A stretch of 50,160 nucleotides of DNA from an uncultured Bacilli bacterium (lineage in GTDB: Bacteria > Bacillota_I > Bacilli_A > RF39 > UBA660). Location: positions 1 to 50,160 of the forward strand of contig CANQHK010000001.1 in assembly GCA_947623645.1 (NCBI GenBank). The letters run 5' to 3'. The stretch's first letter is position 1, and the number at the start of each line of letters is the position of its first letter. Below the pieces are notes generated by a model. It had not been told where the DNA came from. It saw only the letters and a program-made list of their open reading frames with translations, and searched no databases. This document shows positions 1 through 43,033 of this stretch, in pieces. The translations under genes were made by a program, and so were the position numbers.

Positions 1-341
1 ATTTTTTCAATATCGTTATTGTTTTCCATAATTGATAGATATTGTCTACTTATATTTAGTGGTTCTATCATTCTTGTTGTAATCATTCCATTATTGGTAT
101 CCATTATTTGTTTTATAGTATCAGTAAATATTTTTGATTGTTCATTTGGATACTTTATTAATAGTTGCTTTATTGCATTAGACATAGTATTAATGTTTTT
201 TAGTTGTTCTTGCATTGGTTTTGATAGTTGATTAAGCTGTTCCTTTATTCGACTCATAGGTTCCTTTATTGAATTAATAGCTTCTACATAATTTTTAAGA
301 ACATTACTATCAATTTTATAATTGATTTTCTCTTTTTTCAT
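1..341 (-). CDS. hypothetical protein, N-terminal part (gene runs off the window edge)
   Basis: Minus-strand ATG at 341-339 follows aaaagggattaat (AAGGGA-type RBS). The frame stays open to position 1 (MKKEKINYKIDSNVLKNYVEAINSIKEPMSRIKEQLNQL...). It is absent from the ORF track because no stop lies in the window. No family recognised. Confidence 0.4.
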   Translation of the reverse strand, partial: MKKEKINYKIDSNVLKNYVEAINSIKEPMSRIKEQLNQLSKPMQEQLKNINTMSNAIKQLLIKYPNEQSKIFTDTIKQIMDTNNGMITTRMIEPLNISRQYLSIMENNNDIEK

Positions 342-534: not shown

Positions 535-562
535 CCAAAAATGAGAAAGCTTTTACTTTCTC
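535..562 (-). terminator. rho-independent terminator after the kinase/HIRAN cassette
   Basis: Minus strand: GAGAAAG-TAAAAG-CTTTCTC hairpin (562-543) followed by ATTTTTGG. It is about 135 nt downstream of the stop at 697. Confidence 0.55.
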
Positions 563-696
563 TTCAGGGGGAAATCTAAATATCAGTTTGTAACAATTTA
601 ATAATTACTTAAAGTCTTATAAATTATTTTTTTAATTTTAATGAATTAATTAAAGTTTATTAAACTAACATTACTTTTTACATTTAATATCTAGAA

Positions 697-1377
697 TTAA
701 ATGTTCAGAATAAGTTTAACATTAGCAGTAATTTTCTCATCGTTTAATTGTGATTCTAGATTTAAGCTTTGAATCATTGCGGAATACTGAGTTCCTTTTT
801 TTAATTCTGCTAATAATTCTTTACAATAATATCTTGGCACATAACCTAAATGATAGGATTTATTATTTTCTTTAAAAACAATTTTAATTGCATTCGGATC
901 CTTTAAATTTTCTGGTTCTGGTTCTAAATATAATTTTTTATTAACCTTAAGATAGTTTTTACATTCTTCCACATCACTGCAATGACTTGTTCCTGCTACA
1001 TCGAACTCAATTTTACTTGAATCAAAAGCTGGAACAAATTCATAATTATCCGTAAATGTTCTCCCACGTGTTGCTTTTAATATATCAAAATCATCGGAGT
1101 CTTTTTCCAAATTATAACAATTTAAAATTTCTAAATAATCTGGTCTTGTTTCATTGGGTAATCTTGTTAAAATATTTGTAAATAAATCATCACTTTCATA
1201 GGTTTTCGTTAAATCTTCAAAACCTGGAAAATATTTAAAACCTACTGTTCTAGCATCATCTAATTCTGGATTAACATAATTAAACATATACCTGTTATTT
1301 TCTTTCATTAATGATCCAATTTTATATCTTCTACGTGAAATTGGATCTTTCCAAATTAGCCATAACTCTTCTTTCAT
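697..1377 (-). CDS. HipS-like N-terminal domain fused to a C-terminal HIRAN domain (putative antitoxin/sensor partner of the upstream kinase)
   Basis: The N-terminal ~115 aa resemble the HipA N-subdomain/HipS pattern: YKIGSLMKENNRYMFNYV, DDLFTNILTRLPNETRPDYLEIL, DFDILKATRGRTFTDNYEFVP. The C-terminal ~100 aa fit HIRAN: VAGTSH..., LYLEPEPENLKDPNAIKIV, HLGYVPRYYCKELLAEL. The maximal ORF starts with GTG at 1389. The ATG at 1377 has a GGTGA RBS 8 nt upstream and is preferred. Confidence 0.75.
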   Translation of the reverse strand: MKEELWLIWKDPISRRRYKIGSLMKENNRYMFNYVNPELDDARTVGFKYFPGFEDLTKTYESDDLFTNILTRLPNETRPDYLEILNCYNLEKDSDDFDILKATRGRTFTDNYEFVPAFDSSKIEFDVAGTSHCSDVEECKNYLKVNKKLYLEPEPENLKDPNAIKIVFKENNKSYHLGYVPRYYCKELLAELKKGTQYSAMIQSLNLESQLNDEKITANVKLILNI

Positions 1378-1392
1378 TACTATCACCACTTT

Positions 1393-2247
1393 TTACTTTA
1401 TATTTAATAGTATGTTTCTACGTCGAATTAAGTACATTATTATATATTTTTTATGCTCATCAGTCAACAATTCATCGGGTATCTTATTTACTAATTCTTC
1501 TATTATCTCATCCGTAAGTTTCTTTAAATTATTAATTTCAGGAATAACATATTGTGGATAATTGTCGTGTAAATATTGAATCAATTCAAAATGTTTATAT
1601 TTGCTTTTATTATCTTCTTTGTATATTATTGTCTGACTTCTATTTATATATGCATTAAAATCTTTTATATCATCATAATATTTTTTTGCATTTTCTATAT
1701 TTCGAAACTCTCTTAGTAAACTGTCCCCATTATCATATAGTGGAGAAATAAAGTTTTTTCCTTGCTTTTCTGTAATTCCCCAATTTTCTTCATGTCTATC
1801 TTGCTCTCCTATTAATGCATCAAAAATCATTATTTTAATAAAATTACCAAATAAATCAGGATCTATATCATCTAATACAGATTTAATATTTGAAATAGTA
1901 TAATAATTATTTCGTTCCTTTGTATTTTTATTTAAATATGCAACAATATCTGTATGTGGAGCATTAAATCTGTCAGAAAAATAATAGTTTAAAACTCCTA
2001 TCTTATTATCATTATCAACTGCCAATTCAATTTTAGCACAATTATACCCCAAAACTTTGGCAATCTCATACGCTAACTTTTCAGAGCAAGCTTCACTACA
2101 ATCATAATCTTCGCGTTCATATTTGAACATAGCCATCTCTCGTTTATTCGTAATAGCTAATATCTTTTTTCTTGAACCACGCACAATAGGTTCATCTTGT
2201 ATAAATCTAAAATCAGTTCCTATTTTTTTGATTTTATATTTTTCCAT
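1393..2247 (-). CDS. short HipA-family (HipT-like) Ser/Thr kinase, putative toxin
   Basis: HipA_C signatures: Gly-rich loop VRGSRKKIL, catalytic FDALIGEQDRHEENWG, Mg-binding SPLYDNGDSL. It is only ~285 aa, so it lacks the N-terminal subdomain of full-length HipA. The maximal ORF starts with GTG at 2259. The ATG at 2247 follows GGGTGGGTGA. Its stop lies 3 nt from the next maximal ORF, indicating an operon. Confidence 0.8.
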   Translation of the reverse strand: MEKYKIKKIGTDFRFIQDEPIVRGSRKKILAITNKREMAMFKYEREDYDCSEACSEKLAYEIAKVLGYNCAKIELAVDNDNKIGVLNYYFSDRFNAPHTDIVAYLNKNTKERNNYYTISNIKSVLDDIDPDLFGNFIKIMIFDALIGEQDRHEENWGITEKQGKNFISPLYDNGDSLLREFRNIENAKKYYDDIKDFNAYINRSQTIIYKEDNKSKYKHFELIQYLHDNYPQYVIPEINNLKKLTDEIIEELVNKIPDELLTDEHKKYIIMYLIRRRNILLNIK

Positions 2248-2344
2248 AGAATCACCCACCCTACCTATTCTATTTAAATTATATCATATTTTTATGCCTA
2301 AATCGTATCTAATTTTTTTGACAGCCTTGATATTACAAATCCTT

Positions 2345-2377
2345 TTAAAATCAACAAAAGTGGAGCCTTTCGGCTCC
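2345..2377 (-). terminator. rho-independent terminator after recG
   Basis: Minus strand: GGAGCC-GAAA-GGCTCC hairpin (2377-2362) followed by ACTTTTGTTGATTTT. Confidence 0.6.
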
Positions 2378-4937: not shown

Positions 4938-7900
4938 CTAACTTTCGGAATTCTCTGCTAATTTTTCATAATATTCATAACGCATCTTTGCATGTTCCTC
5001 ATTCTTTTTTAAGAGTTCTTCACATTTTTCTTTATGAACGTATTCAAGCATTCGATACCGATCTTCTCCTTTTAAGAATTCTTGATACTTTGAAAAATCA
5101 GCTTTCGAGTCAAGGGAGAAAATCTTCGTTCTTGGATCATAATGGAAAAGTGGAAAATAACCAGAGAGAACAGCATCTTTTTCTTCTTGAATAGAGTTTT
5201 CCATTCCCTTTAAAATTCCTTGTGCAATACATGGAGAATAAGCAAGAATGAAAGATGGTCCCTCGTAAGACACTGCTTCTTCTAAAACTTTCACAGTATG
5301 TTGCATGTTGGCTCCCATAGAAATAGCACCAACATAGACATGAGGATAAGTAAGAGCAATTTTCGCAAGATCTTTTTTCGCTGTTTCTTTTCCTTTCGAA
5401 GTAAACTTCGCAACGGAAGCAGTTTTACTCGATTTTGAAGATTGCCCTCCTGTATTCGAATAAACCTCTGTATCCAATACTACAATCGTAACATCTTCGT
5501 GGTTGGCCAAAACATGGTCAATTCCAGAAAATCCAATATCGTACGCCCAACCATCTCCACCGATAATAAAGAAGTTTTTCTTTTTAATAAACATCTTCAA
5601 CTGTTGAAGTTCTATAATATTTGATTTTTCTACCAAAGAATAAAGTTTTTCACTATTTTCTGTAGTAACTTTTTCTAAATAAGAATCGACGACCTCTTCA
5701 TCAAGGAAAGTTCGATATTTCGAAATTAAAGTTCGAATCTTTTCTTTCATAACATCATCAGCAATTTTCATTCCATAACCATATTCAGCATTATCTTCAA
5801 ATAAAGAATTAGCCCATGGTACGTTCCAAGCCGTCGTTGGTAAAGAAGCACTGTAAATAGAAGAACATCCAGTTGCATTACTAATGACTAAAGAATCTCC
5901 AAAAAGTTGAGAAATCAACCTCAAATAAGGAGTTTCTCCACATCCAGCACAAGCCCCAGGGAAAGTAAATCTTGGCTTTTGGAATTGGCTTCCCTTAACC
6001 GTTGCTTTTGGAAGAACATCTTTATAAGTTACTTTTTCAAATAAATATTTCCATGCGTCCTCAAATCCCTCTTCTTGAAGATGCGCAACACTATCCATAA
6101 AAAGAGCTTTTTCTCCTTTTTTACCAGGACAAATATTGGCACATAATTTACATCCCGTACAATCTGGAATGGAAGGACACACGACAAAATATAATTTTTG
6201 ATTTGGAATGTTTGCATCGCGGGCAAGTTTTTGAACAATTTCTGGTGCATTCTTATACTCTTCTTCTGTTAATAAGAAAGGTCGAATAACCGCATGCGGG
6301 CAAACAAAAGAACAAAGATTACATTGAATACAATTTTCTGGTTTAAAGTGCGGAGCAAAGGAAGAAGTACCACGTTTTTCAATATTGGAAAGTCCCCCCT
6401 CAAAAGTACCATCGCTATGTTTTAAGAAACTACTAACAGGAAGACTATCCCCTTGTGCTTTATTCATCGCATCCATCAAAGAATCATTAGAAACCGTTAA
6501 GGCATCTCCTCCAAGAGCAGGATCAATCGAAACTTCAAAGAAAGCATCCAAACTAAGATCAATTGCTTCTTTATTTTTATCAGCTATAGAATTTCCTTTC
6601 TTTCCAAATTTAACATCGATGGTCTTTTTCATAAAGGCAATGGCATCATCAAAATTCAAAAGATTTCCGAGTTTAAAAATACCAACTTCCATGATACTAC
6701 TAATTTTATTATCAAGACCTACTTGTTTACTAATTTTTAAAGCATCAATGCAATATAGATGAGCATTTTTTTCTTTTAATAATTCGAGTTCCTCTTTGGT
6801 GAAAAGTCTTAAAATATTATCTCCTGTTCGATCGGTATTAATAAGAACAATTCCATTTTCACGAATCGAAGATACGACATCAAATTTCTTAAAATAACTT
6901 TCTTTTGTACAAACAATCATATCAGCATTTTCGATATAATATGGAGAATGAATTTCTTCTTTAGAGAATCGTAAATGACTTTTGGTAACTCCTCCTGATT
7001 TTTTAGAATCGTATTGGAAGTATCCTTGAACATAATCATCCGTATTTTCTCCAGTAATTTTCATAATATCTTTACTAGCACTAACCATTCCATCGCTTCC
7101 ATAACCCCAAATCAAAAATTCTTTTCTTTTTCCACCAATAACGATAGGAACTTCTTTTAAACTTAAATTGGTAACGTCATCTTCAATTCCTATTGTGAAG
7201 TTATGATGAATCGTATTATGAATTAAAGTTTCATAGACTCCTTGGATTTGAGATGGCGTTGTATTTTTACTCGATAGACCATATCTTCCACCATAAATTT
7301 CAATATTTCTAGAAGAAAGAGCTGCTACAACATCTTTATAAAGAGGTTCTCCACCACTTCCTGGTTCTTTCGTTCGATCTAGTACAGCAATTTTTTCTAC
7401 TGATTCTGGTAAAGAATCAAGGAGATGTTTCATGGAGAAAGGTCGATATAAATGAACCTCGATAAGACCAACCTCATCTCCTCTTTTTTCAATAACTTCC
7501 CGAATTGTATCGCAGACACTTCCCATAGCAACAATTACATATTTGCTGTTTGGACTTCCGTAGTAATTAAAGAGTTGATAATTTCTACCCAACTTTTGAT
7601 TGATTTTTTTCATATATTGATCAACAATATCAGGAATTTTATCATAGTAAGAATTTCTTACTTCTGTCATTTGAAAATAAACATCATCATTTTGAGCTGT
7701 ACCTCTTGTTACAGGATTCGTAGTAAGGCTACGATTCCGAAACTCCTGCAAAGCCTCTTCATCGATTAAAGACTTTAAAAATTCAGGATCTGGAATTTCT
7801 ACTTTTTGAAGTTCGTGAGAAGTTCTAAAACCATCAAAAAAGTGAAGAAAAGGAACTCTTCCTCGAATGGCTGAAAGATGACTCACTGCAGATAAATCTG

Positions 7901-9401: not shown

Positions 9402-10427
9402 TTAGTCAGTAACAATCCAAGCGGTTGGAATATTTCTAAGTCCTTCTGCACCCCCTGCTACGGGATTCGATGCAACTTCTCCTTCTAAGATTAACGCAGA
9501 AGAACTTCCACCATCCATATTGGCAGCATTTACAGCGCCATATCTTTGCATAATTTCTGTAAGTTCTACCATTCCACAACCAATGCTAGCAGCTCGTCTT
9601 CCATCGATAATTAAGAATAAAACGATTCCATCTTTTCTTTGTCCGATCGCTGTTCTAGGAGCAATTCCCCATCCTCCATCACCTTGAACAAAGGAAGGTT
9701 TCCCATTAACAATCAAAAATGGCCCAAATTCAACGCCATCCCGAATTCCTCTTGCAATTGCTTGTTTTGCAGTCATTCTTCCAAGAACTAAAACATTGTT
9801 CTGGTCAAATCCAACCATTCCTCCTCCAACTTTAGCATCTTCATAATCCCAGACAACTTTTCCGTTTTGAATAACTGTTCCATGAGCAATCGCACCATTA
9901 CTATTCCAATCCGGATCATAAAATCCACTTGCATTAATTGCAACATGTGCATTATAATGTCTAGAAATAACTTTTACAGATTGTCCAGTAGTTCCAAGTT
10001 TTGAAGTTGTACCAATATGTACTTTGGAAGCATCATAAATTGCTACTAAATATCCTTTATAACCGGTTCCACTAACATTGATCACTTTATATAATGCATC
10101 TCTGTCTCTTTTTAAAATTTCTTCTTCATACTTGGATGCATATTTTTGTTCTTCTTGAAAATCAATTAATGTTGTATCCGTATCTTCTCCTGATTCAATT
10201 ACTTTATTATAAGCAAGAACTCTTGCAATTTCTTCATCAGAATAAAACCATGTTGCTAAATAATGATGTGTCTTCGTTGTCATTGCTGTTGTAATTAAAA
10301 GATTTCGAAATCCTGACCATGGTCCATATAATAGGAAAGTACCACCAGATATTCCAATCATTATAATTGAAAAAAACAAGATAAAGAAACGCTTAATTCG
10401 AATGTTAATTTTTCTCTTTAACTTCAT
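9402..10427 (-). CDS. phosphodiester glycosidase family protein (NAGPA/DUF2233-like), membrane anchored
   Basis: INASGF, GPFLIVNGK, PRTAIGQRKDG, LIIDGR, NMDGGSSS. An N-terminal TM helix is present. Confidence 0.7.
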   Translation of the reverse strand: MKLKRKINIRIKRFFILFFSIIMIGISGGTFLLYGPWSGFRNLLITTAMTTKTHHYLATWFYSDEEIARVLAYNKVIESGEDTDTTLIDFQEEQKYASKYEEEILKRDRDALYKVINVSGTGYKGYLVAIYDASKVHIGTTSKLGTTGQSVKVISRHYNAHVAINASGFYDPDWNSNGAIAHGTVIQNGKVVWDYEDAKVGGGMVGFDQNNVLVLGRMTAKQAIARGIRDGVEFGPFLIVNGKPSFVQGDGGWGIAPRTAIGQRKDGIVLFLIIDGRRAASIGCGMVELTEIMQRYGAVNAANMDGGSSSALILEGEVASNPVAGGAEGLRNIPTAWIVTD

Positions 10428-10437
10428 ACTCTACTCC

Positions 10438-10824
10438 TTATTTTCCCATATATTTCCCATCATCATTAAAATCTAAATAATCATAATTTTTTAAATCAAA
10501 TAATTGCACTTGCTGACTAACATCTACACTTTTATTATATAATTCTAAAAATTCATTATATTTATGGACATCTTTCCAAAATCCATATTTTCCAGCTACA
10601 TTCTCTATATATAAATCATTAATAACATCATTATAGATTAATTCTCTTTCTCCATTAAAAGATTCCATCAATTCTTTAAATTTTTTATAATTAACCTCGA
10701 TTTCTTCGATTCCACTTTTTGTATCTGAAACATCTTTTGCAAAACTTGTAACAAAAGACATAACACTTCCACTAAAAATCATCAAAACTCCCATAATTGC
10801 TACTAATAACGATTTTCTTTTCAT
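10438..10824 (-). CDS. hypothetical membrane-anchored/secreted protein
   Basis: 128 aa with an N-terminal hydrophobic helix and GGAGG RBS. No family recognised. Confidence 0.5.
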   Translation of the reverse strand: MKRKSLLVAIMGVLMIFSGSVMSFVTSFAKDVSDTKSGIEEIEVNYKKFKELMESFNGERELIYNDVINDLYIENVAGKYGFWKDVHKYNEFLELYNKSVDVSQQVQLFDLKNYDYLDFNDDGKYMGK

Positions 10825-10930: not shown

Positions 10931-11515
10931 TTATTGTCTAGTAAAGAAGGAGAGGATTTTTGAAAAATGATAGAGAATTCTTGTTGAGTTATTAATAGCA
11001 ATACTTTTTCCCATTGCTTTTCCTCCAATTGTTAAGGATGCAACTAGGGCCGTTACAATCAAAGTAACAGGGAGTATGGAAATACTAAGATTCTTGGCAA
11101 TCGTTGTAGAAATTGCAACTGCAGTGGAACCACTCATAATTCCACAGATATCTCCAATAACATCATTACAAAAACTTGATGCTTTTTCACTATTTTGAAT
11201 TAGTTTACTTGCAAGACGTGCTCCTCGAACTCTTTTTGTCGCCATTGAATGAAAGGTAGAGGCATTCGCAACTGTAACACTGATTCCAATCATATCAAAT
11301 AAAATTCCAAGAGCAATAAAAAAAATGGTCATAAAACCAGCGAAAAAGAATCCTACCGATGGAATAATGGTCTCCGATAAAAAAGAAAAGATAAAAGAAA
11401 TCCAGAAAGCACTAACACTTACAATAAAAATCCAACTATAATCCGATTTTTTTCGAACTTCGTTTTTTCTTTTTACCTTTTTTGAATATTTTTCTTTATA
11501 TTTTTTGGTTTTCAA
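10931..11515 (-). CDS. oapA: OLE-associated protein A-like small multi-pass membrane protein
   Basis: 194 aa with a Lys-rich N-terminus and about four TM helices. It has conserved-looking FDMIGISV and NDVIGDICG (DxxxD). TTG start with RBS AAAGAGGTGG. It follows the large structured RNA directly. Confidence 0.6.
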   Translation of the reverse strand: MKTKKYKEKYSKKVKRKNEVRKKSDYSWIFIVSVSAFWISFIFSFLSETIIPSVGFFFAGFMTIFFIALGILFDMIGISVTVANASTFHSMATKRVRGARLASKLIQNSEKASSFCNDVIGDICGIMSGSTAVAISTTIAKNLSISILPVTLIVTALVASLTIGGKAMGKSIAINNSTRILYHFSKILSFFTRQ

Positions 11516-11537
11516 AAAACCACCTCTTTAAAAAATT

Positions 11538-12117
11538 ATGTAGAGATGGCAAGAAGCAATAAACTTTGTATCTTAGGTCAAGTTGGATTTCCCTCGCCTC
11601 TTACACATTCGTTACCAAATATGCAGTTTCCTTTTCAAAGAGTGAATAGTACATCACTGTATCTATGACTTGATTACCACTTAGTATACACTGCAATCTT
11701 GCGTTCTTAAACACTCTAGAAGTTTTCCTTAAGACACGTTTATGAATTGTTTAGACTTTTTTGCAAAAATTGTTTCAAGGAGCAATACTCATATAAAAAG
11801 ATGTACACCTTTTAATAAGCTGTCTCTATCCCCAAATTTTCACGCAAGCCAAGCTACACTATTCCAAGCTTTCACCTAGAATAGGTTCTCTCCCTAGTTC
11901 GTAAGTTTCCCTACAAAGATAGGTCTCCGCGATAACCATGGGTCGGGGTATGTATGCCATTACATATCGCCCACAGTATCTATCATTCCCAGCACTCACC
12001 CGAAACTGGGCGTAACAAGCAAGCACCAGAAGCTTCACAGATATGCTCTTCAACGATATTTTAACCTCGTCTTCACAAAACTTATGCATCAACTAGAATA
12101 GTGCGCCATCTCTACGA
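11538..12117 (-). ncRNA. ole: large structured ncRNA, best interpreted as OLE RNA
   Basis: A ~580-nt G+C-enriched block without a credible ORF. A perfect 11-bp closing helix pairs GUAGAGAUGGC (12115-12105) with GCCAUCUCUAC (11550-11540). Many internal hairpins are visible. It has its own promoter and an oapA-like gene immediately downstream. Confidence 0.6.
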
Positions 12118-12122
12118 TAAAG

Positions 12123-12150
12123 ATTATATCATATTTTAGAAAAAGTGCAA
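12123..12150 (-). promoter_or_regulatory. extended -10 promoter for the large ncRNA
   Basis: Minus strand: TTGCAC (12150-12145), 16 nt, TGaTATAAT (-10 at 12128-12123). The TSS would fall a few nt before the closing helix. Confidence 0.5.
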
Positions 12151-28133: not shown

Positions 28134-28210
28134 TGGGGCGGGATAAGGGAATCGAACCCTTGCATACTGGAGCCACAATCCAGCGTGTTAACCACTTCAC
28201 CAATACCGCC
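28134..28210 (-). tRNA. tRNA-His (GUG)
   Basis: Hand-folded cloverleaf. Anticodon loop UUGUGGC, T-loop GGGTTCGATTCCC, encoded G-1 pairing with C73, encoded CCA. There is one U-C mismatch at 5:68. Confidence 0.85.
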
Positions 28211-33972: not shown

Positions 33973-34049
33973 TGGTGTCCACGGCGAGAGTCGAACTCGC
34001 GACCTTTGCCTTCGGAGGGCAACACTCTATCCAACTGAGCTACGTGAAC
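33973..34049 (-). tRNA. tRNA-Arg (CCG)
   Basis: Hand-folded cloverleaf. GTAGCTCAGTTGGATAGAG D-arm, anticodon loop CUCCGAA, T-loop GAGTTCGACTCTC, encoded CCA. Confidence 0.85.
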
Positions 34050-42667: not shown

Positions 42668-43033
42668 TAAAAAATACTTTATAAGCCATGTTCTGTAACC
42701 TATTTCTAGGCGACAAACATTTATCTATTGATTTCTCAATCCTCGATTTTGTTCTTTTTCCTCCATCGAAGCTCCCCTACCAAAATTTGGGTTTCTCACT
42801 CGTGGGGCTTACCAACGTTTCACCTTTTTCTTTCGAAAAATAATCGTTCCTGTGGCACTTTACGGTTACTTTTTCCATCGCTTTACGCATTAGGAAATTT
42901 TACCTCCGTCAGAATCCTGCCTAGGGTTATTTTTTCCCCTAGCACGAACACTACTATCATCCCAGATAGTGTGAGCATGGACTTTCCTCTATATTCCAAG
43001 AATACAGCGTTTGTCAAAGTATTTTTTATTCAT
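42668..43033 (-). ncRNA. rnpB: RNase P RNA, type B
   Basis: Minus strand carries AGAGGAAAGTCCATGCTCACAC, GTGCCACAG, GAGAAACCCAAATTTTGGTAGGGG and ACAGAACATGGCTTAT. P1 pairs AAAAATACTTT (about 43031-43021) with AAAGTATTTTT (about 42680-42670). Confidence 0.9.

What the first reader, a model, noticed from the sequence alone, without database searches (positions are those of the whole stretch)
697..2259. Short HipA/HipT-like kinase paired with a HipS-like-HIRAN fusion: an uncharacterised toxin-antitoxin/defence architecture
Seen in sequence: two tightly linked minus-strand genes lie between the recG terminator (2345-2377) and their own terminator (535-562). They are visibly more AT-rich than the neighbouring genes. 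Gene 1 (1393-2247) has HipA C-terminal kinase motifs: VRGSRKK loop, FDALIGEQDRHEENWG and SPLYDNGDS. It lacks the N-terminal subdomain of full-length HipA, as HipT does. Gene 2 (697-1377) starts with a region resembling the missing HipA N-subdomain/HipS: YKIGSLMKENNRYMFNYV, DDLFTNILTRLPNETRPDYLEIL, DFDILKATRGRTFTDNYEF. It ends in a clear HIRAN domain: LYLEPEPENLKDPNAIKIV, HLGYVPRYYCKELL. No HipB-type HTH gene is present. Established knowledge: HipA and HipT phosphorylate aminoacyl-tRNA synthetases and arrest translation. HipS neutralises HipT in hipBST. HIRAN domains (HLTF/Rad5) bind 3'-OH DNA ends. As I recall, a phylogenomic survey of Hip kinases (Gerdes, Baerentsen and Brodersen, 2021) listed bicistronic kinase plus HipS-HIRAN operons as predictions without experimental follow-up. 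Inference: kinase release may be coupled to sensing of free DNA ends, from phage replication or DNA damage. That would make it a translation-arrest abortive-infection or persistence switch.
Basis: partly seen in the sequence, partly recalled or inferred. Interest (0 to 1): 0.75.

Follow-up and report, generated by a model that had tools for sequence, protein, structure and literature searches.

The report
Known-type HipI kinase / HipS-HIRAN cassette
This is a compact two-gene mobile cassette: a short HipA-family kinase followed by a protein that joins a kinase-blocking HipS fold to a DNA-end-binding HIRAN domain. It belongs to the published but never tested "hipIN" / PADLOC PDC-M03 family, so it is a correct find but not a new kind of system.

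Summary
Two co-oriented minus-strand genes (hipI 1393-2247, hipN 697-1377) lie between two intrinsic terminators. Gene 1 hits Pfam HipA_C and keeps every catalytic residue. Gene 2 hits HIRAN. A confident AlphaFold model of its N-terminal 118 aa matches only HipS of the Legionella HipBST system. No HTH gene is present.

The pair is already named hipIN (Gerdes et al. 2021) and catalogued as PADLOC candidate PDC-M03. I found no experimental study of it.

New here:
- The kinase is closer to H. pylori CtkA than to HipT or HipA.
- The unit shared between genomic contexts is only about 1.6 kb. It sits at an ICE edge, in an integrase island next to AbiZ, and in temperate phages next to the integrase.
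- None of 80 related recG loci carries it. That flank is a defence/TA hotspot.
- Natural kinase-HipS-HIRAN fusions (HipL) fold as one packed unit (pTM 0.83).
- Every kinase-anchored locus has HipN, but about a quarter of HipN genes are solitary. These arose by kinase-only deletions and remain under purifying selection.

Most likely it is a kinase toxin held by HipN, acting as a TA or abortive-infection module. Gating by DNA ends remains inference.

The parts
2362..2377 (-). Intrinsic terminator of recG; upstream boundary of the cassette
   Evidence: Stem GGAGCC-GAAA-GGCTCC followed by a T-run. Two terminators were found in 300-2600 against 0.4 expected.
2248..2311 (-). Promoter/RBS region of the cassette: weak sigma-70-like match at 2311..2283, TATAAT-like box, GGTGA RBS
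   Evidence: 9/12 promoter-like match. Sequence read. DNA homology to relatives in other contexts begins at about 2296. A 22-nt two-copy direct repeat at 2275-2320 is of unknown significance.
1393..2247 (-). hipI: 284-aa short HipA-family Ser/Thr kinase, the putative toxin/effector
   Evidence: Pfam HipA_C E=1.6e-11. PADLOC PDC-M03A E=1e-66. Best PDB sequence match is CtkA E=7.7e-7, then HipT E=4e-3. G24, K28, K42, S55-E56-K57, D150-R151-H152, N155 and D172 are invariant in 38 homologs; Ser/Thr at position 25 in 35/38.
2164..2184 (-). Gly-rich (P-) loop VRGSRKK with Ser25
   Evidence: Its position near the N-terminus shows that HipA N-subdomain-1 is absent.
1783..1800 (-). Catalytic loop DRHEEN
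   Evidence: D150, H152 and N155 are invariant.
1726..1746 (-). Mg-binding motif SPLYDNG
   Evidence: Y171 and D172 are invariant.
1378..1392 (-). 15-nt gene junction carrying the hipN RBS (GTGGTGA)
   Evidence: In 47 paired loci the junction is always between -19 and +17 nt.
1024..1377 (-). hipN residues 1-118: HipS-fold domain, the putative kinase-neutralising module
   Evidence: AlphaFold2 pLDDT 96.8, pTM 0.87. The only real Foldseek hit is 7VKB_B, HipS of L. pneumophila: TM 0.65/0.74, probability 1.00. The domain family has 795 representatives at 50% clustering.
757..1014 (-). hipN residues 122-207: HIRAN domain, the putative DNA 3'-end binder
   Evidence: Pfam HIRAN E=7.9e-13. Profile against PDB: lp_0118 (3K2Y) E=2e-8, HLTF HIRAN E=0.01. 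D160 is conserved in 76/78 and the GYVPRYY motif is essentially invariant.
697..1377 (-). hipN: complete 226-aa HipS-HIRAN protein
   Evidence: PADLOC PDC-M03B E=5e-64. 627 close homologs, nearly all 224-230 aa.
543..562 (-). Intrinsic terminator of the cassette
   Evidence: Stem GAGAAAG...CTTTCTC followed by a T-run.
1..341 (-). Start of the next gene, cut by the window edge: weakly AbiEi-like. It is neighbouring context, not part of the cassette.
   Evidence: 113 aa are visible. PADLOC AbiEi E=6.9e-5 over residues 74-113. It resembles bona fide AbiEi genes found downstream of recG in relatives.

Best explanation
The locus is a hipIN-type module (PADLOC PDC-M03), a self-contained and horizontally mobile two-gene operon.

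Proposed mechanism:
1. HipI is an active short HipA-family Ser/Thr kinase whose uncontrolled activity is harmful. By analogy with HipA and HipT, it probably arrests translation by phosphorylating an aminoacyl-tRNA synthetase or another essential factor.
2. HipN is made by tight translational coupling. Its N-terminal HipS-fold domain binds HipI where HipA carries its own N-subdomain-1, and keeps the Gly-rich loop in an inactive state, as HipS does to HipT.
3. The C-terminal HIRAN domain makes that inhibition conditional. Binding of free DNA 3' ends would release or activate the kinase. Such ends could come from phage genome ends, replication intermediates or a degraded chromosome.
4. The result is growth arrest that aborts infection and/or stabilises the carrying element.

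Shown here: domain identities, catalytic competence at sequence level, obligatory genetic coupling of the kinase to HipN, natural fusion of the parts, and carriage in mobile or defence contexts.
Inferred: toxicity, neutralisation, the trigger and the target.
For: - Identity: HipA_C and HIRAN score above Pfam cut-offs. Both PADLOC PDC-M03 models hit at E about 1e-64 to 1e-66. PDC-M03 is described as a HipA protein plus a HIRAN protein. hipIN is defined in PMC8262856.
- HipS fold: model pLDDT 96.8. The sole structural match is HipS(Lp), 7VKB_B, TM 0.65/0.74. HipS neutralises HipT by reshaping or blocking the Gly-rich loop.
- Active kinase: all catalytic residues are invariant in 38 homologs, and Ser/Thr follows the loop Gly in 35/38.
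- Coupling: the gene junction is -19 to +17 nt in 47/47 pairs.
- Rosetta-stone fusion: HipL proteins are colinear with HipI plus HipN (E about 1e-44 for each part). About 30 full-length fusions were found. The fusion model has pTM 0.83 for 520 residues.
- Toxin/antitoxin asymmetry: 28/28 kinase-anchored places have HipN downstream. In contrast, 23/80 HipN loci have no kinase and about 6 have a degraded one. Kinase-only deletions are seen directly.
- Accessory/defence context: none of 80 related recG loci carries the cassette. L056 reads recG, integrase, hipIN, AbiZ. AbiE pairs sit at the same flank in relatives. Close relatives place it at an ICE edge. Phages carry it next to the integrase.
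- Precedent: a different HipA-family two-gene system (DS-6/HipAD) protects against phage and needs kinase activity.
Against: - No hipIN module has been tested experimentally in any paper I could search.
- The HipS-fold domain is too divergent for the Pfam Couple_hipA model. I could not establish whether the Trp65 'wedge' of E. coli HipS has an equivalent. The corresponding loop carries a different invariant motif, R72-L-P74-x-x-x-R78-x-D80.
- The kinase is structurally nearer to CtkA, which is described as an ICE-encoded pro-inflammatory effector rather than a TA toxin.
- Solitary HipN genes are common and under purifying selection (dN/dS about 0.22). HipN may therefore do something besides neutralising a neighbouring kinase.
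- The docking geometry of HipS-like domain on kinase could not be inspected.
- In HLTF a Tyr next to the 3'-OH-binding Asp stacks on the terminal base (my recollection). Here that position is Lys159, so DNA-end binding may differ.
Confidence: 0.6

Rival explanations
1. It is a pure addiction (post-segregational killing) module for mobile elements. HipI/HipN is a type II TA that stabilises ICEs, islands and prophages. The HIRAN domain replaces HipB as the DNA-binding part that autoregulates the operon, and it does not sense phage DNA.
For: There is no HTH gene. The cassette sits at an ICE edge and directly beside integrases in an island and in two phages. A two-copy 22-nt repeat lies in the promoter region.
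Against: Characterised HIRAN domains bind DNA ends rather than operators (as summarised in PMC8262856). The promoter repeat is AT-rich, has only two copies and lies largely outside the about 50 nt of upstream DNA shared between contexts. Many cassettes sit in plain chromosomal contexts such as rpoC-glyS or patatin. Neighbours include AbiZ and AbiE.
Confidence: 0.2
2. HipN is the primary functional unit: a DNA-end or DNA-damage-responsive factor with a kinase-independent role. The Hip kinase is an optional, exchangeable output (signalling or persistence switch) rather than a toxin that HipN exists to neutralise.
For: 23/80 species-level loci have HipN alone. Orphan-orphan dN/dS has a median of 0.22, against 0.18 for paired genes. 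Orphan contexts are shared between species (L059/L060/L068). HipN also pairs with a different 381-aa HipA_C/PI3_PI4-like kinase in L031 and occurs with other C-terminal additions. The cassette lies next to recG in four species.
Against: Orphans retain 13-65 nt of the 3' end of hipI, so they derive from paired cassettes by deletion. Some orphans are themselves decaying (L029, L081). No kinase was ever seen without HipN, which fits toxicity. Kinases elsewhere in the orphan genomes could not be excluded.
Confidence: 0.13
3. It is an inactive relic: a decaying horizontally acquired cassette with no current function in this genome.
For: GC is lower than in the neighbours. Related lineages show kinase frameshifts and deletions.
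Against: In the window both ORFs are full length with RBSs, a promoter-like site and a terminator. All catalytic and HIRAN signature residues are intact. Window-versus-relative dN/dS values are 0.09-0.28.
Confidence: 0.04

Closest known systems
[quoted passage not shown]
   Same: Kinase-first bicistronic operon. Short kinase (279-321 aa class) lacking N-subdomain-1, with the four Hip motifs and a Ser/Thr by the Gly-rich loop. The downstream protein is a HipS-like domain plus HIRAN. No HTH partner. Found in Firmicutes among other phyla.
   Different: Nothing architectural. This instance comes from an uncultured low-GC gut Bacilli lineage that the 2021 survey barely sampled (2 'Tenericutes' kinases in total). 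Placement in their tree was not recomputed.
PADLOC-DB phage defence candidate PDC-M03 (A = HipA-like, B = HIRAN)
   Same: Both proteins match the A and B models end to end (E about 1e-66 and 5e-64) and are adjacent. An independent genome paper describes the system as HipA plus HIRAN proteins.
   Different: PDC entries are predictions and have not been validated.
HipBST tripartite TA (E. coli O127:H6; L. pneumophila Lpg2368-2370)
   Same: The HipA architecture is split into a small kinase and a separate HipS-fold protein. The window's N-domain superposes on HipS(Lp). HipS is the experimentally proven antitoxin.
   Different: There is no HipB. The gene order is reversed, with the kinase first. 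The HipS-fold domain is fused to HIRAN. The kinase resembles HipT less than it resembles CtkA. Conservation of the Trp65 wedge was not established.
HipL single-chain kinases (kinase-HipS-like-HIRAN)
   Same: Colinear with HipI plus HipN and homologous over both parts. Same three domains. The linker length (about 9 aa) is comparable to the window's 15-nt junction.
   Different: One polypeptide, mostly in Bacillaceae and in a 33.8-kb E. coli/Yersinia phage. In the window a stop codon separates the genes. The shared reading frame there is chance.
CtkA (JHP0940) Ser/Thr kinase of Helicobacter pylori, PDB 3AKJ/3AKK/3AKL
   Same: Closest solved relative of the kinase by sequence (E=7.7e-7) and by fold via the HipL model (TM 0.77-0.82). 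It is also cargo of an integrative conjugative element, tfs3.
   Different: CtkA is described as a pro-inflammatory effector acting on host cells. I found no HipS/HIRAN partner or TA role reported for it, and its gene neighbourhood was not examined here.
DS-6 / HipAD anti-phage system (DefensePredictor, PMC13092281)
   Same: A two-gene system with a HipA-family kinase whose catalytic residue is required for phage defence. The partner is unrelated to HipB.
   Different: The partner carries DUF3037/DUF1829, not HipS-HIRAN. It is a different kinase lineage and was not compared by sequence here.
HIRAN domain of human HLTF (PDB 4S0N, 4XZF, 5BNH) and lp_0118 (3K2Y)
   Same: Pfam family membership. 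The profile aligns HipN 'N157-x-x-D160-x-x-A-I' with HLTF 'N-P-Y-D-K-N-A-I'. The HIRAN part of the related HipL model superposes on lp_0118 (TM 0.77-0.84) and on DNA-bound HLTF HIRAN (0.57-0.65).
   Different: Here it is attached to a kinase-regulating domain instead of a SWI/SNF helicase. The aromatic residue before the conserved Asp is Lys in the window protein.

Membership tests
hipIN (HipI/HipN) of Gerdes et al. 2021 | Short kinase (about 279-321 aa) lacking HipA N-subdomain-1, with the Gly-rich loop close to the N-terminus | tested here: met
   284 aa. Loop VRGSRKK is at residues 22-28. The Pfam HipA_C match starts at residue 23.
hipIN (HipI/HipN) of Gerdes et al. 2021 | Four conserved Hip kinase motifs (Gly-rich loop, activation/ATP-binding Lys region, catalytic D-x-H-x-x-N, Mg-binding D) | tested here: met
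   G24, K28, K42, D150, H152, N155 and D172 are invariant in 38 homologs.
hipIN (HipI/HipN) of Gerdes et al. 2021 | [quoted passage not shown] | tested here: met
   Ser25 in the window. Ser/Thr in 35/38 homologs. Phosphorylation itself is not testable here.
hipIN (HipI/HipN) of Gerdes et al. 2021 | [quoted passage not shown] | tested here: met
   HIRAN by Pfam. HipS fold by AlphaFold2 plus Foldseek: 7VKB_B, TM 0.65/0.74.
hipIN (HipI/HipN) of Gerdes et al. 2021 | Bicistronic, kinase first, no HTH (HipB) gene | tested here: met
   The junction is 15 nt.
hipIN (HipI/HipN) of Gerdes et al. 2021 | [quoted passage not shown] | not tested
   Reference sequences from their Table S1 were not available to build the tree. 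Indirect support: homology to HipL kinases, which are also clade XI (E=1.8e-44).
hipIN (HipI/HipN) of Gerdes et al. 2021 | Kinase is toxic and HipN neutralises it | not testable with these tools
   Only genetic asymmetry is available: 28/28 kinase loci have HipN, and 23/80 HipN loci lack a kinase.
PADLOC PDC-M03 | Adjacent genes matching the PDC-M03A and PDC-M03B profile HMMs | tested here: met
   PDLC04340 E=9.7e-67 and PDLC04352 E=5.2e-64, both near full length.
PADLOC PDC-M03 | Provides anti-phage defence | not testable with these tools
   It is only a candidate, and no validation was found.
HipBST | Separate HipS-fold antitoxin corresponding to HipA N-subdomain-1 | tested here: met
HipBST | Third gene encoding a HipB HTH protein; order hipB-hipS-hipT | tested here: not met
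   No HTH ORF is present. The kinase precedes the HipS-like gene.
HipBST | HipS wedge residue (Trp65 in E. coli O127) inserted by the Gly-rich loop | tested here: inconclusive
   The sequence profile aligns HipS only up to the residue before this loop. The HipN loop 72-80 carries invariant R72, P74, R78 and D80. No coordinates were available.
Canonical HipBA | About 440-aa kinase with N-subdomain-1 in cis, plus an upstream HipB | tested here: not met
   The kinase is 284 aa and there is no HipB. HipA structures are the weakest of the kinase matches (TM 0.40-0.47).
HIRAN domain (PF08797) | Score above the Pfam gathering threshold | tested here: met
   48.5 bits against 24.7.
HIRAN domain (PF08797) | Conserved acidic residue that contacts the DNA 3'-OH in HLTF (Asp94 by my recollection of the HLTF papers) | tested here: met
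   D160 aligns with the Asp of HLTF 'NPYDKNAIKV' and is conserved in 76/78 HipN sequences. The HLTF residue number and role are from memory.
HIRAN domain (PF08797) | Binds free DNA 3' ends | not testable with these tools
   Needs EMSA or fluorescence anisotropy.

The most novel reading that the evidence does not exclude
HipN (HipS-HIRAN) is an autonomous, widely retained DNA-end-responsive adaptor. Different kinase effectors are repeatedly attached to it and lost from it: short HipI, a 381-aa HipA_C/PI3_PI4-like kinase, and covalently fused HipL. The solitary copies, about a quarter of species in this gut Bacilli group, would then have their own function. One option is immunity against incoming hipIN-bearing phages or ICEs (anti-addiction). 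Another is a kinase-independent role at DNA ends. They would not be mere leftovers. If the HIRAN domain gates the kinase, this would be a bacterial protein kinase switched on by free DNA 3' ends.
Probability: 0.2. Interest if true: 0.7.

Novelty: new member of a known kind. Interest (0 to 1): 0.33.

Why it matters
hipIN/PDC-M03 is one of the Hip-kinase architectures that has been predicted twice independently, once by phylogenomics and once by defence-candidate mining, and never tested. If the model holds, it would link detection of free DNA ends to kinase-mediated translation arrest. That would be a sensing principle distinct from known TA triggers, and it would explain why temperate phages, ICEs and integrase islands carry the module.

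This particular instance adds no new architecture. The comparative results obtained here sharpen what to test: the HipS fold is confirmed, the kinase has CtkA affinity, the kinase depends obligatorily on HipN, kinase-only deletion is recurrent while HipN stays conserved, and the recG 3' flank is a defence hotspot. They also point to tractable relatives for the experiments, namely Bacillus HipL, C. difficile phage phiCDKH02 and E. coli phage 899.

Tried and rejected
1. Programmed read-through. hipI and hipN share a reading frame in the window, separated by TAA plus 5 codons, which suggested a HipL-like read-through fusion. Rejected: across 47 pairs the three frame relations are equally frequent (14/18/15) and all three stop codons are used.
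2. Chimera docking test. I built HipN(1-116)-linker-HipI with a paired alignment (A3), to test HipA-like docking by Foldseek against full-length HipA.
3. Mixed alignment of fusions plus separate kinases and HipNs (A4). MAFFT misplaced the kinase rows, so it was discarded. A5, made only of natural fusions, was used instead.
4. Sequence-only detection of HipS likeness. Pfam and NCBIfam gave nothing. The profile against PDB gave only E about 0.5-1. This was insufficient on its own.
5. Hidden HipB, a small ORF or an RNA partner. None was found.
6. Promoter operator. A two-copy 22-nt repeat is not convincing and lies mostly outside the conserved unit.
7. Kinase-anchored scan of viral contigs. It returned only 4 loci, too few for statistics on their own.
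8. Proximity to aminoacyl-tRNA synthetase genes in some contexts (L199, L009, L005). I considered this as a hint to the target, but judged it compatible with chance in small genomes.
9. Literature search for experimental work on hipIN, HipL, HipN or PDC-M03. None was found.
Full report
OBSERVATION. The two minus-strand ORFs are present as described. The alternative GTG starts lie inside those sites. Gene 1 is 284 aa and gene 2 is 226 aa. They are separated by TAA plus 15 nt. Terminator-like hairpins with T-runs occur at 2377..2362 (end of recG) and 562..543 (end of the cassette), 2 found against 0.4 expected by chance. All quoted peptide motifs are in place. Cassette GC is 26.2%, against 31.6% for recG, 34.9% for PFOR and 30.6% for the window. 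That is the 9th percentile of equal-size windows, so the AT-richness is real but modest. No additional small ORF, HTH gene or Rfam RNA lies in or next to the cassette.

WHAT THE PROTEINS ARE. Gene 1 matches Pfam HipA_C (E=1.6e-11, 44.7 bits, cut-off 30.5). Gene 2 matches HIRAN (E=7.9e-13, 48.5 bits, cut-off 24.7). Both match the paired PADLOC candidate models PDC-M03A and PDC-M03B nearly end to end (E=1e-66 and 5e-64). [quoted passage not shown]

The kinase's catalytic apparatus is intact and invariant across 38 homologs of 44-92% identity. The invariant residues are G24 and K28 of the Gly-rich loop, K42, S55-E56-K57, D150-R151-H152, N155 and Y171-D172. A Ser or Thr follows the loop glycine in 35/38. 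The loop sits at residues 22-28, so the about 100-aa N-subdomain-1 of HipA is absent.

By sequence the nearest solved structure is CtkA of H. pylori (E=7.7e-7), ahead of Legionella HipT (E=4e-3).

The N-terminal 118 aa of gene 2 have no Pfam, NCBIfam or single-sequence PDB hit. An exhaustive HMMER search shows they define a family of 795 representatives at 50% clustering. The domain occurs mostly in 215-260-aa HipN-like proteins. It also occurs in short stand-alone proteins, and at residues about 290-410 of 500-530-aa proteins. A profile of 60 members reaches E. coli and H. influenzae HipS only at E about 0.5-1, in a colinear register. An AlphaFold2 model from that alignment is very confident (pLDDT 96.8, pTM 0.87). 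In the PDB it resembles just one thing: chain B of 7VKB (TM 0.65/0.74, probability 1.00, all other hits TM<0.3). That chain is HipS of the L. pneumophila HipBST system. The 'HipS-like' claim is therefore confirmed structurally.

The HIRAN half matches lp_0118 (3K2Y, E=2e-8) and human HLTF HIRAN (E=0.01). The family's conserved N157-x-x-D160-x-x-A163-I164 aligns to HLTF N-P-Y-D-K-N-A-I. From my recollection of the HLTF structures, that Asp contacts the DNA 3'-OH. The aromatic residue preceding it in HLTF is Lys159 here.

IT ALREADY HAS A NAME. [quoted passage not shown] They counted 14 such modules among 1,239. They proposed that HIRAN recognises DNA ends of invading phages and thereby activates the kinase to trigger abortive infection, 'which can now be tested experimentally'.

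I found no later experimental work. A 2025 NAR paper notes HIRAN-HipA (HipI) clusters next to diDNase genes and says the link 'remains to be investigated'. The PADLOC group's preprint treats PDCs as predictions. Other HipA-family kinases have since been validated in defence: DS-6/HipAD, where the kinase catalytic residue is required, and a retron effector. Their partners are different.

DISTRIBUTION AND MOBILITY. HipN has 627 close homologs in the protein collection and the kinase 457. One kinase entry is 100% identical and lies on a 50,160-bp NCBI contig, which is the window itself. A scan of one genome per species found 133 carriers. The best 80 are mostly uncultured gut 'Bacilli', 'Tenericutes' or 'Mycoplasma sp. 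CAG' MAGs, with a few Saccharibacteria and Clostridia. These names usually correspond to GTDB order RF39; that is my inference and was not tested. A class-B RNase P RNA in the window fits Bacilli.

DNA homology between the window and relatives in other contexts spans only about 2296..695, which is about 50 nt of upstream DNA plus the two genes. There are no flanking repeats or transposase. Contexts differ widely:
- at the edge of a conjugative-element block (TraC-like, TraG, coupling protein) in the 92%-identical relatives;
- after a patatin gene;
- between rpoC and a class-II aaRS gene;
- downstream of recG in the window and in three more distant species.

In one of those species, L056, the order is recG, tyrosine integrase (Pfam E=2e-23), hipI, hipN, AbiZ (PADLOC E=1e-39).

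None of 80 recG loci from related taxa (RecG 66-77% identical) has hipI or hipN downstream, although 29 keep the PFOR-recG synteny. That flank instead holds AbiEi/AbiEii pairs (L112, L115, L153), a Schlafen-type ATPase (L113), an integrase-like gene (L121) or unrelated genes. The window's own next gene, cut by the window edge, is weakly AbiEi-like. So the recG 3' flank is a variable defence/TA hotspot and hipIN is one of its cargoes.

The module also rides on temperate phages and phage-like elements. In C. difficile phage phiCDKH02 the order is integrase, HIRAN, HipA, ImmA, repressor. In a 14-kb Vibrio element it is HipA-like, HIRAN, integrase. In the 33.8-kb Escherichia phage 899 and a Yersinia phage, a single 519-aa fusion lies between the replication endonuclease and portal genes. 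I recall this as the accessory hotspot of P2-like phages (Rousset et al. 2022). That point is inference and was not verified here.

EVIDENCE THAT THE TWO PROTEINS WORK TOGETHER, AND HOW.
(i) In 47 intact pairs the gene junction is always between -19 and +17 nt, with the RBS inside it.

(ii) Natural single-chain proteins (HipL type: P0141, P0181, P0212 and about 30 more, mostly Bacillaceae) are colinear with HipI plus HipN. They are homologous to both (E about 1e-44 for each part), with a 9-residue linker. An AlphaFold2 model of one fusion from 33 full-length sequences has pLDDT 88 and pTM 0.83 for 520 residues. This argues for a packed three-domain assembly rather than independent beads. Its kinase domain superposes best on CtkA (TM 0.77-0.82), then HipT (0.55-0.62), then HipA (0.40-0.47). 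Its HIRAN part superposes on lp_0118 (0.77-0.84) and DNA-bound HLTF HIRAN (0.57-0.65).

(iii) There is a clear asymmetry. Every kinase-anchored place examined has HipN immediately downstream: 24/24 from three kinase lineages and 4/4 viral contigs. Of the 80 HipN-anchored species loci, 47 have an intact kinase. About 6 have a frameshifted or internally deleted one, 2 are cut by contig ends, 1 has a different 381-aa HipA_C/PI3_PI4-like kinase, and 23 have none.

(iv) Near-identical syntenic pairs differ by an indel that removes essentially just the kinase ORF: L072 vs L070 (913 bp) and L053 vs L068 (851 bp). Orphans keep 13-65 nt of the 3' end of hipI (L016, L022, L068, L070). They therefore arose by deletion of the kinase.

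This pattern is what toxin-antitoxin logic predicts: the toxin is dispensable and counter-selected, and is never kept without its antidote. In HipBST the HipS protein occupies the position of HipA N-subdomain-1. It blocks the Gly-rich loop through a loop-to-helix change in Legionella and a Trp65 wedge in E. coli. The same mode is the most economical reading for the HipS-fold domain of HipN.

WHAT DOES NOT FIT NEATLY. Solitary HipN genes are not simply decaying. Orphan-orphan dN/dS has a median of 0.22 (0.13-0.40, n=15), against 0.18 for paired-paired (n=125). Some orphan contexts are shared between species. Either HipN has a kinase-independent role, or it acts in trans on kinases elsewhere or incoming, or the selection signal largely predates kinase loss. 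Whole genomes were not available to distinguish these. I could not establish an equivalent of the HipS Trp65 wedge. The corresponding loop carries the family's strongest motif, R72-L-P74-x-x-x-R78-x-D80. The kinase's affinity to CtkA, an ICE-encoded protein described as a host-directed pro-inflammatory effector, is a reminder that clade XI kinases have no known bacterial substrate.

MOST LIKELY MECHANISM AND RIVALS. Best supported (about 0.6): a kinase-toxin / HipS-HIRAN-antitoxin module carried as accessory cargo, working as a TA and probably as an abortive-infection system. The neutralisation step is moderately well supported by fold, fusion and asymmetry. I would put the DNA-end trigger alone at about 0.35. 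The translation target is analogy only.

Rivals:
- an addiction module with HIRAN as autoregulatory DNA binder (0.2);
- HipN as the primary DNA-end factor with exchangeable kinase outputs (0.13);
- an inactive relic (0.04).

COMPARISON AND NOVELTY. The locus meets every sequence or structure-testable defining feature of hipIN and of PADLOC PDC-M03. It fails the HipBST and HipBA definitions on HipB, gene order and, for HipBA, the cis N-subdomain. It is a new member of a known, predicted but experimentally untouched kind. The window's in-frame single-stop junction is coincidental. Interest is therefore modest. The added value here is the set of comparative observations listed above.

LIMITS. No coordinates or PAE are returned by the structure tool, so the interface could not be inspected. 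MAG assemblies can contain frameshift errors, so the 'degraded kinase' count is approximate. The kinase-anchored sample covers few independent lineages.

Noticed in passing
L016, L022, L034, L039, L043, L044, L048, L058-L060, L062, L065, L066, L068, L070, L073, L078, L086, L087, L090, L091 (HipN at about 6001-6680 in most): Solitary, full-length HipN genes with no kinase within 6 kb occur in about a quarter of species-level genomes. They are under purifying selection (orphan-orphan dN/dS median 0.22) and are interleaved with paired copies at up to 96% identity.
   Followed up: partly
L072:2827-3739 vs L070:2458-2478; L053:3700-4550 vs L068:5925-5943: Otherwise syntenic loci (87-97% identity) differ by an indel of about 0.85-0.9 kb that removes essentially only the kinase ORF. 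HipN and a short 3' remnant of hipI are left behind.
   Followed up: yes
L096-L175 (recG 3' flank), e.g. L112:9038-10511, L115:8979-10503, L153:3328-4014, L113:8245-9747, L121:8250-9359, L056:3983-8506: The region just downstream of recG is a variable hotspot in this bacterial group. It carries AbiEi/AbiEii pairs, a Schlafen-type ATPase, integrase genes, or integrase + hipIN + AbiZ.
   Followed up: partly
window 1-341 (minus strand): The gene after the cassette runs off the window edge. Its residues 74-113 weakly match the N-terminus of AbiEi (PADLOC E=7e-5), and it resembles true AbiEi genes near recG in relatives. A marginal Phage_Mu_Gam hit is probably coiled-coil noise.
   Followed up: partly
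window 11530-12125 (minus strand): A full-length OLE (ornate large extremophilic) RNA, 334 bits against a gathering score of 50, in what looks like a gut Bacilli MAG. Two small unannotated ORFs follow it on the same strand (10931-11515 and 10438-10824) and have no Pfam hit.
   Followed up: no
window 42677-43022 (minus strand); 28137-28209 and 33976-34049 (minus strand): A class-B bacterial RNase P RNA (272 bits) and two tRNA genes. Class B fits a Bacilli/Mollicutes-type host.
   Followed up: no
L002:7967-9634 upstream of HipN at 10001-10681: In one contig, a HipN protein identical to that of seven sibling contigs is preceded not by the kinase but by a 555-aa Schlafen AlbA_2 + HATPase_c_4 protein, with a 366-nt gap. 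In sibling L006 the same kind of gene lies downstream instead.
   Followed up: partly
L031:4844-5989: Here HipN is preceded by a longer (381 aa), divergent kinase that hits both HipA_C (30.6 bits, at threshold) and PI3_PI4_kinase. This suggests HipN can pair with more than one kinase lineage.
   Followed up: partly
L177:2601-4160 (Escherichia phage 899, PV533660.1 23624-25183): A 519-aa 'hypothetical protein' that is a kinase-HipS-HIRAN fusion lies between the replication endonuclease / exoribonuclease genes and the portal gene of a 33.8-kb phage. The same gene is in Yersinia phage GMG73.
   Followed up: partly
P0126 (425 aa); P0170, P0258, P0261, P0263 (319-351 aa); P0236 (315 aa): Other architectures of the HipS-like domain exist: HipN with a C-terminal extension of about 200 aa, HipS-like + HIRAN with extra Cys-rich C-terminal tails, and a protein with the HipS-like domain at its C-terminus. 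None was analysed further.
   Followed up: no
window 2275-2296 and 2299-2320: A two-copy 22-nt direct repeat (77% identity, 24-nt spacing) overlaps the promoter-like region upstream of hipI. It is AT-rich and largely outside the DNA shared with relatives, so it may be chance.
   Followed up: partly
L199:3791-4852; L009:14675-15679; L005:16450-20102: In several contexts hipIN lies close to aminoacyl-tRNA synthetase genes: a class-II aaRS 244 nt downstream, a class-Ib aaRS about 4 kb away, and GltX and CysS 6-8 kb away. This is probably coincidence in small genomes, but it is noted because Hip kinases target aaRSs.
   Followed up: no
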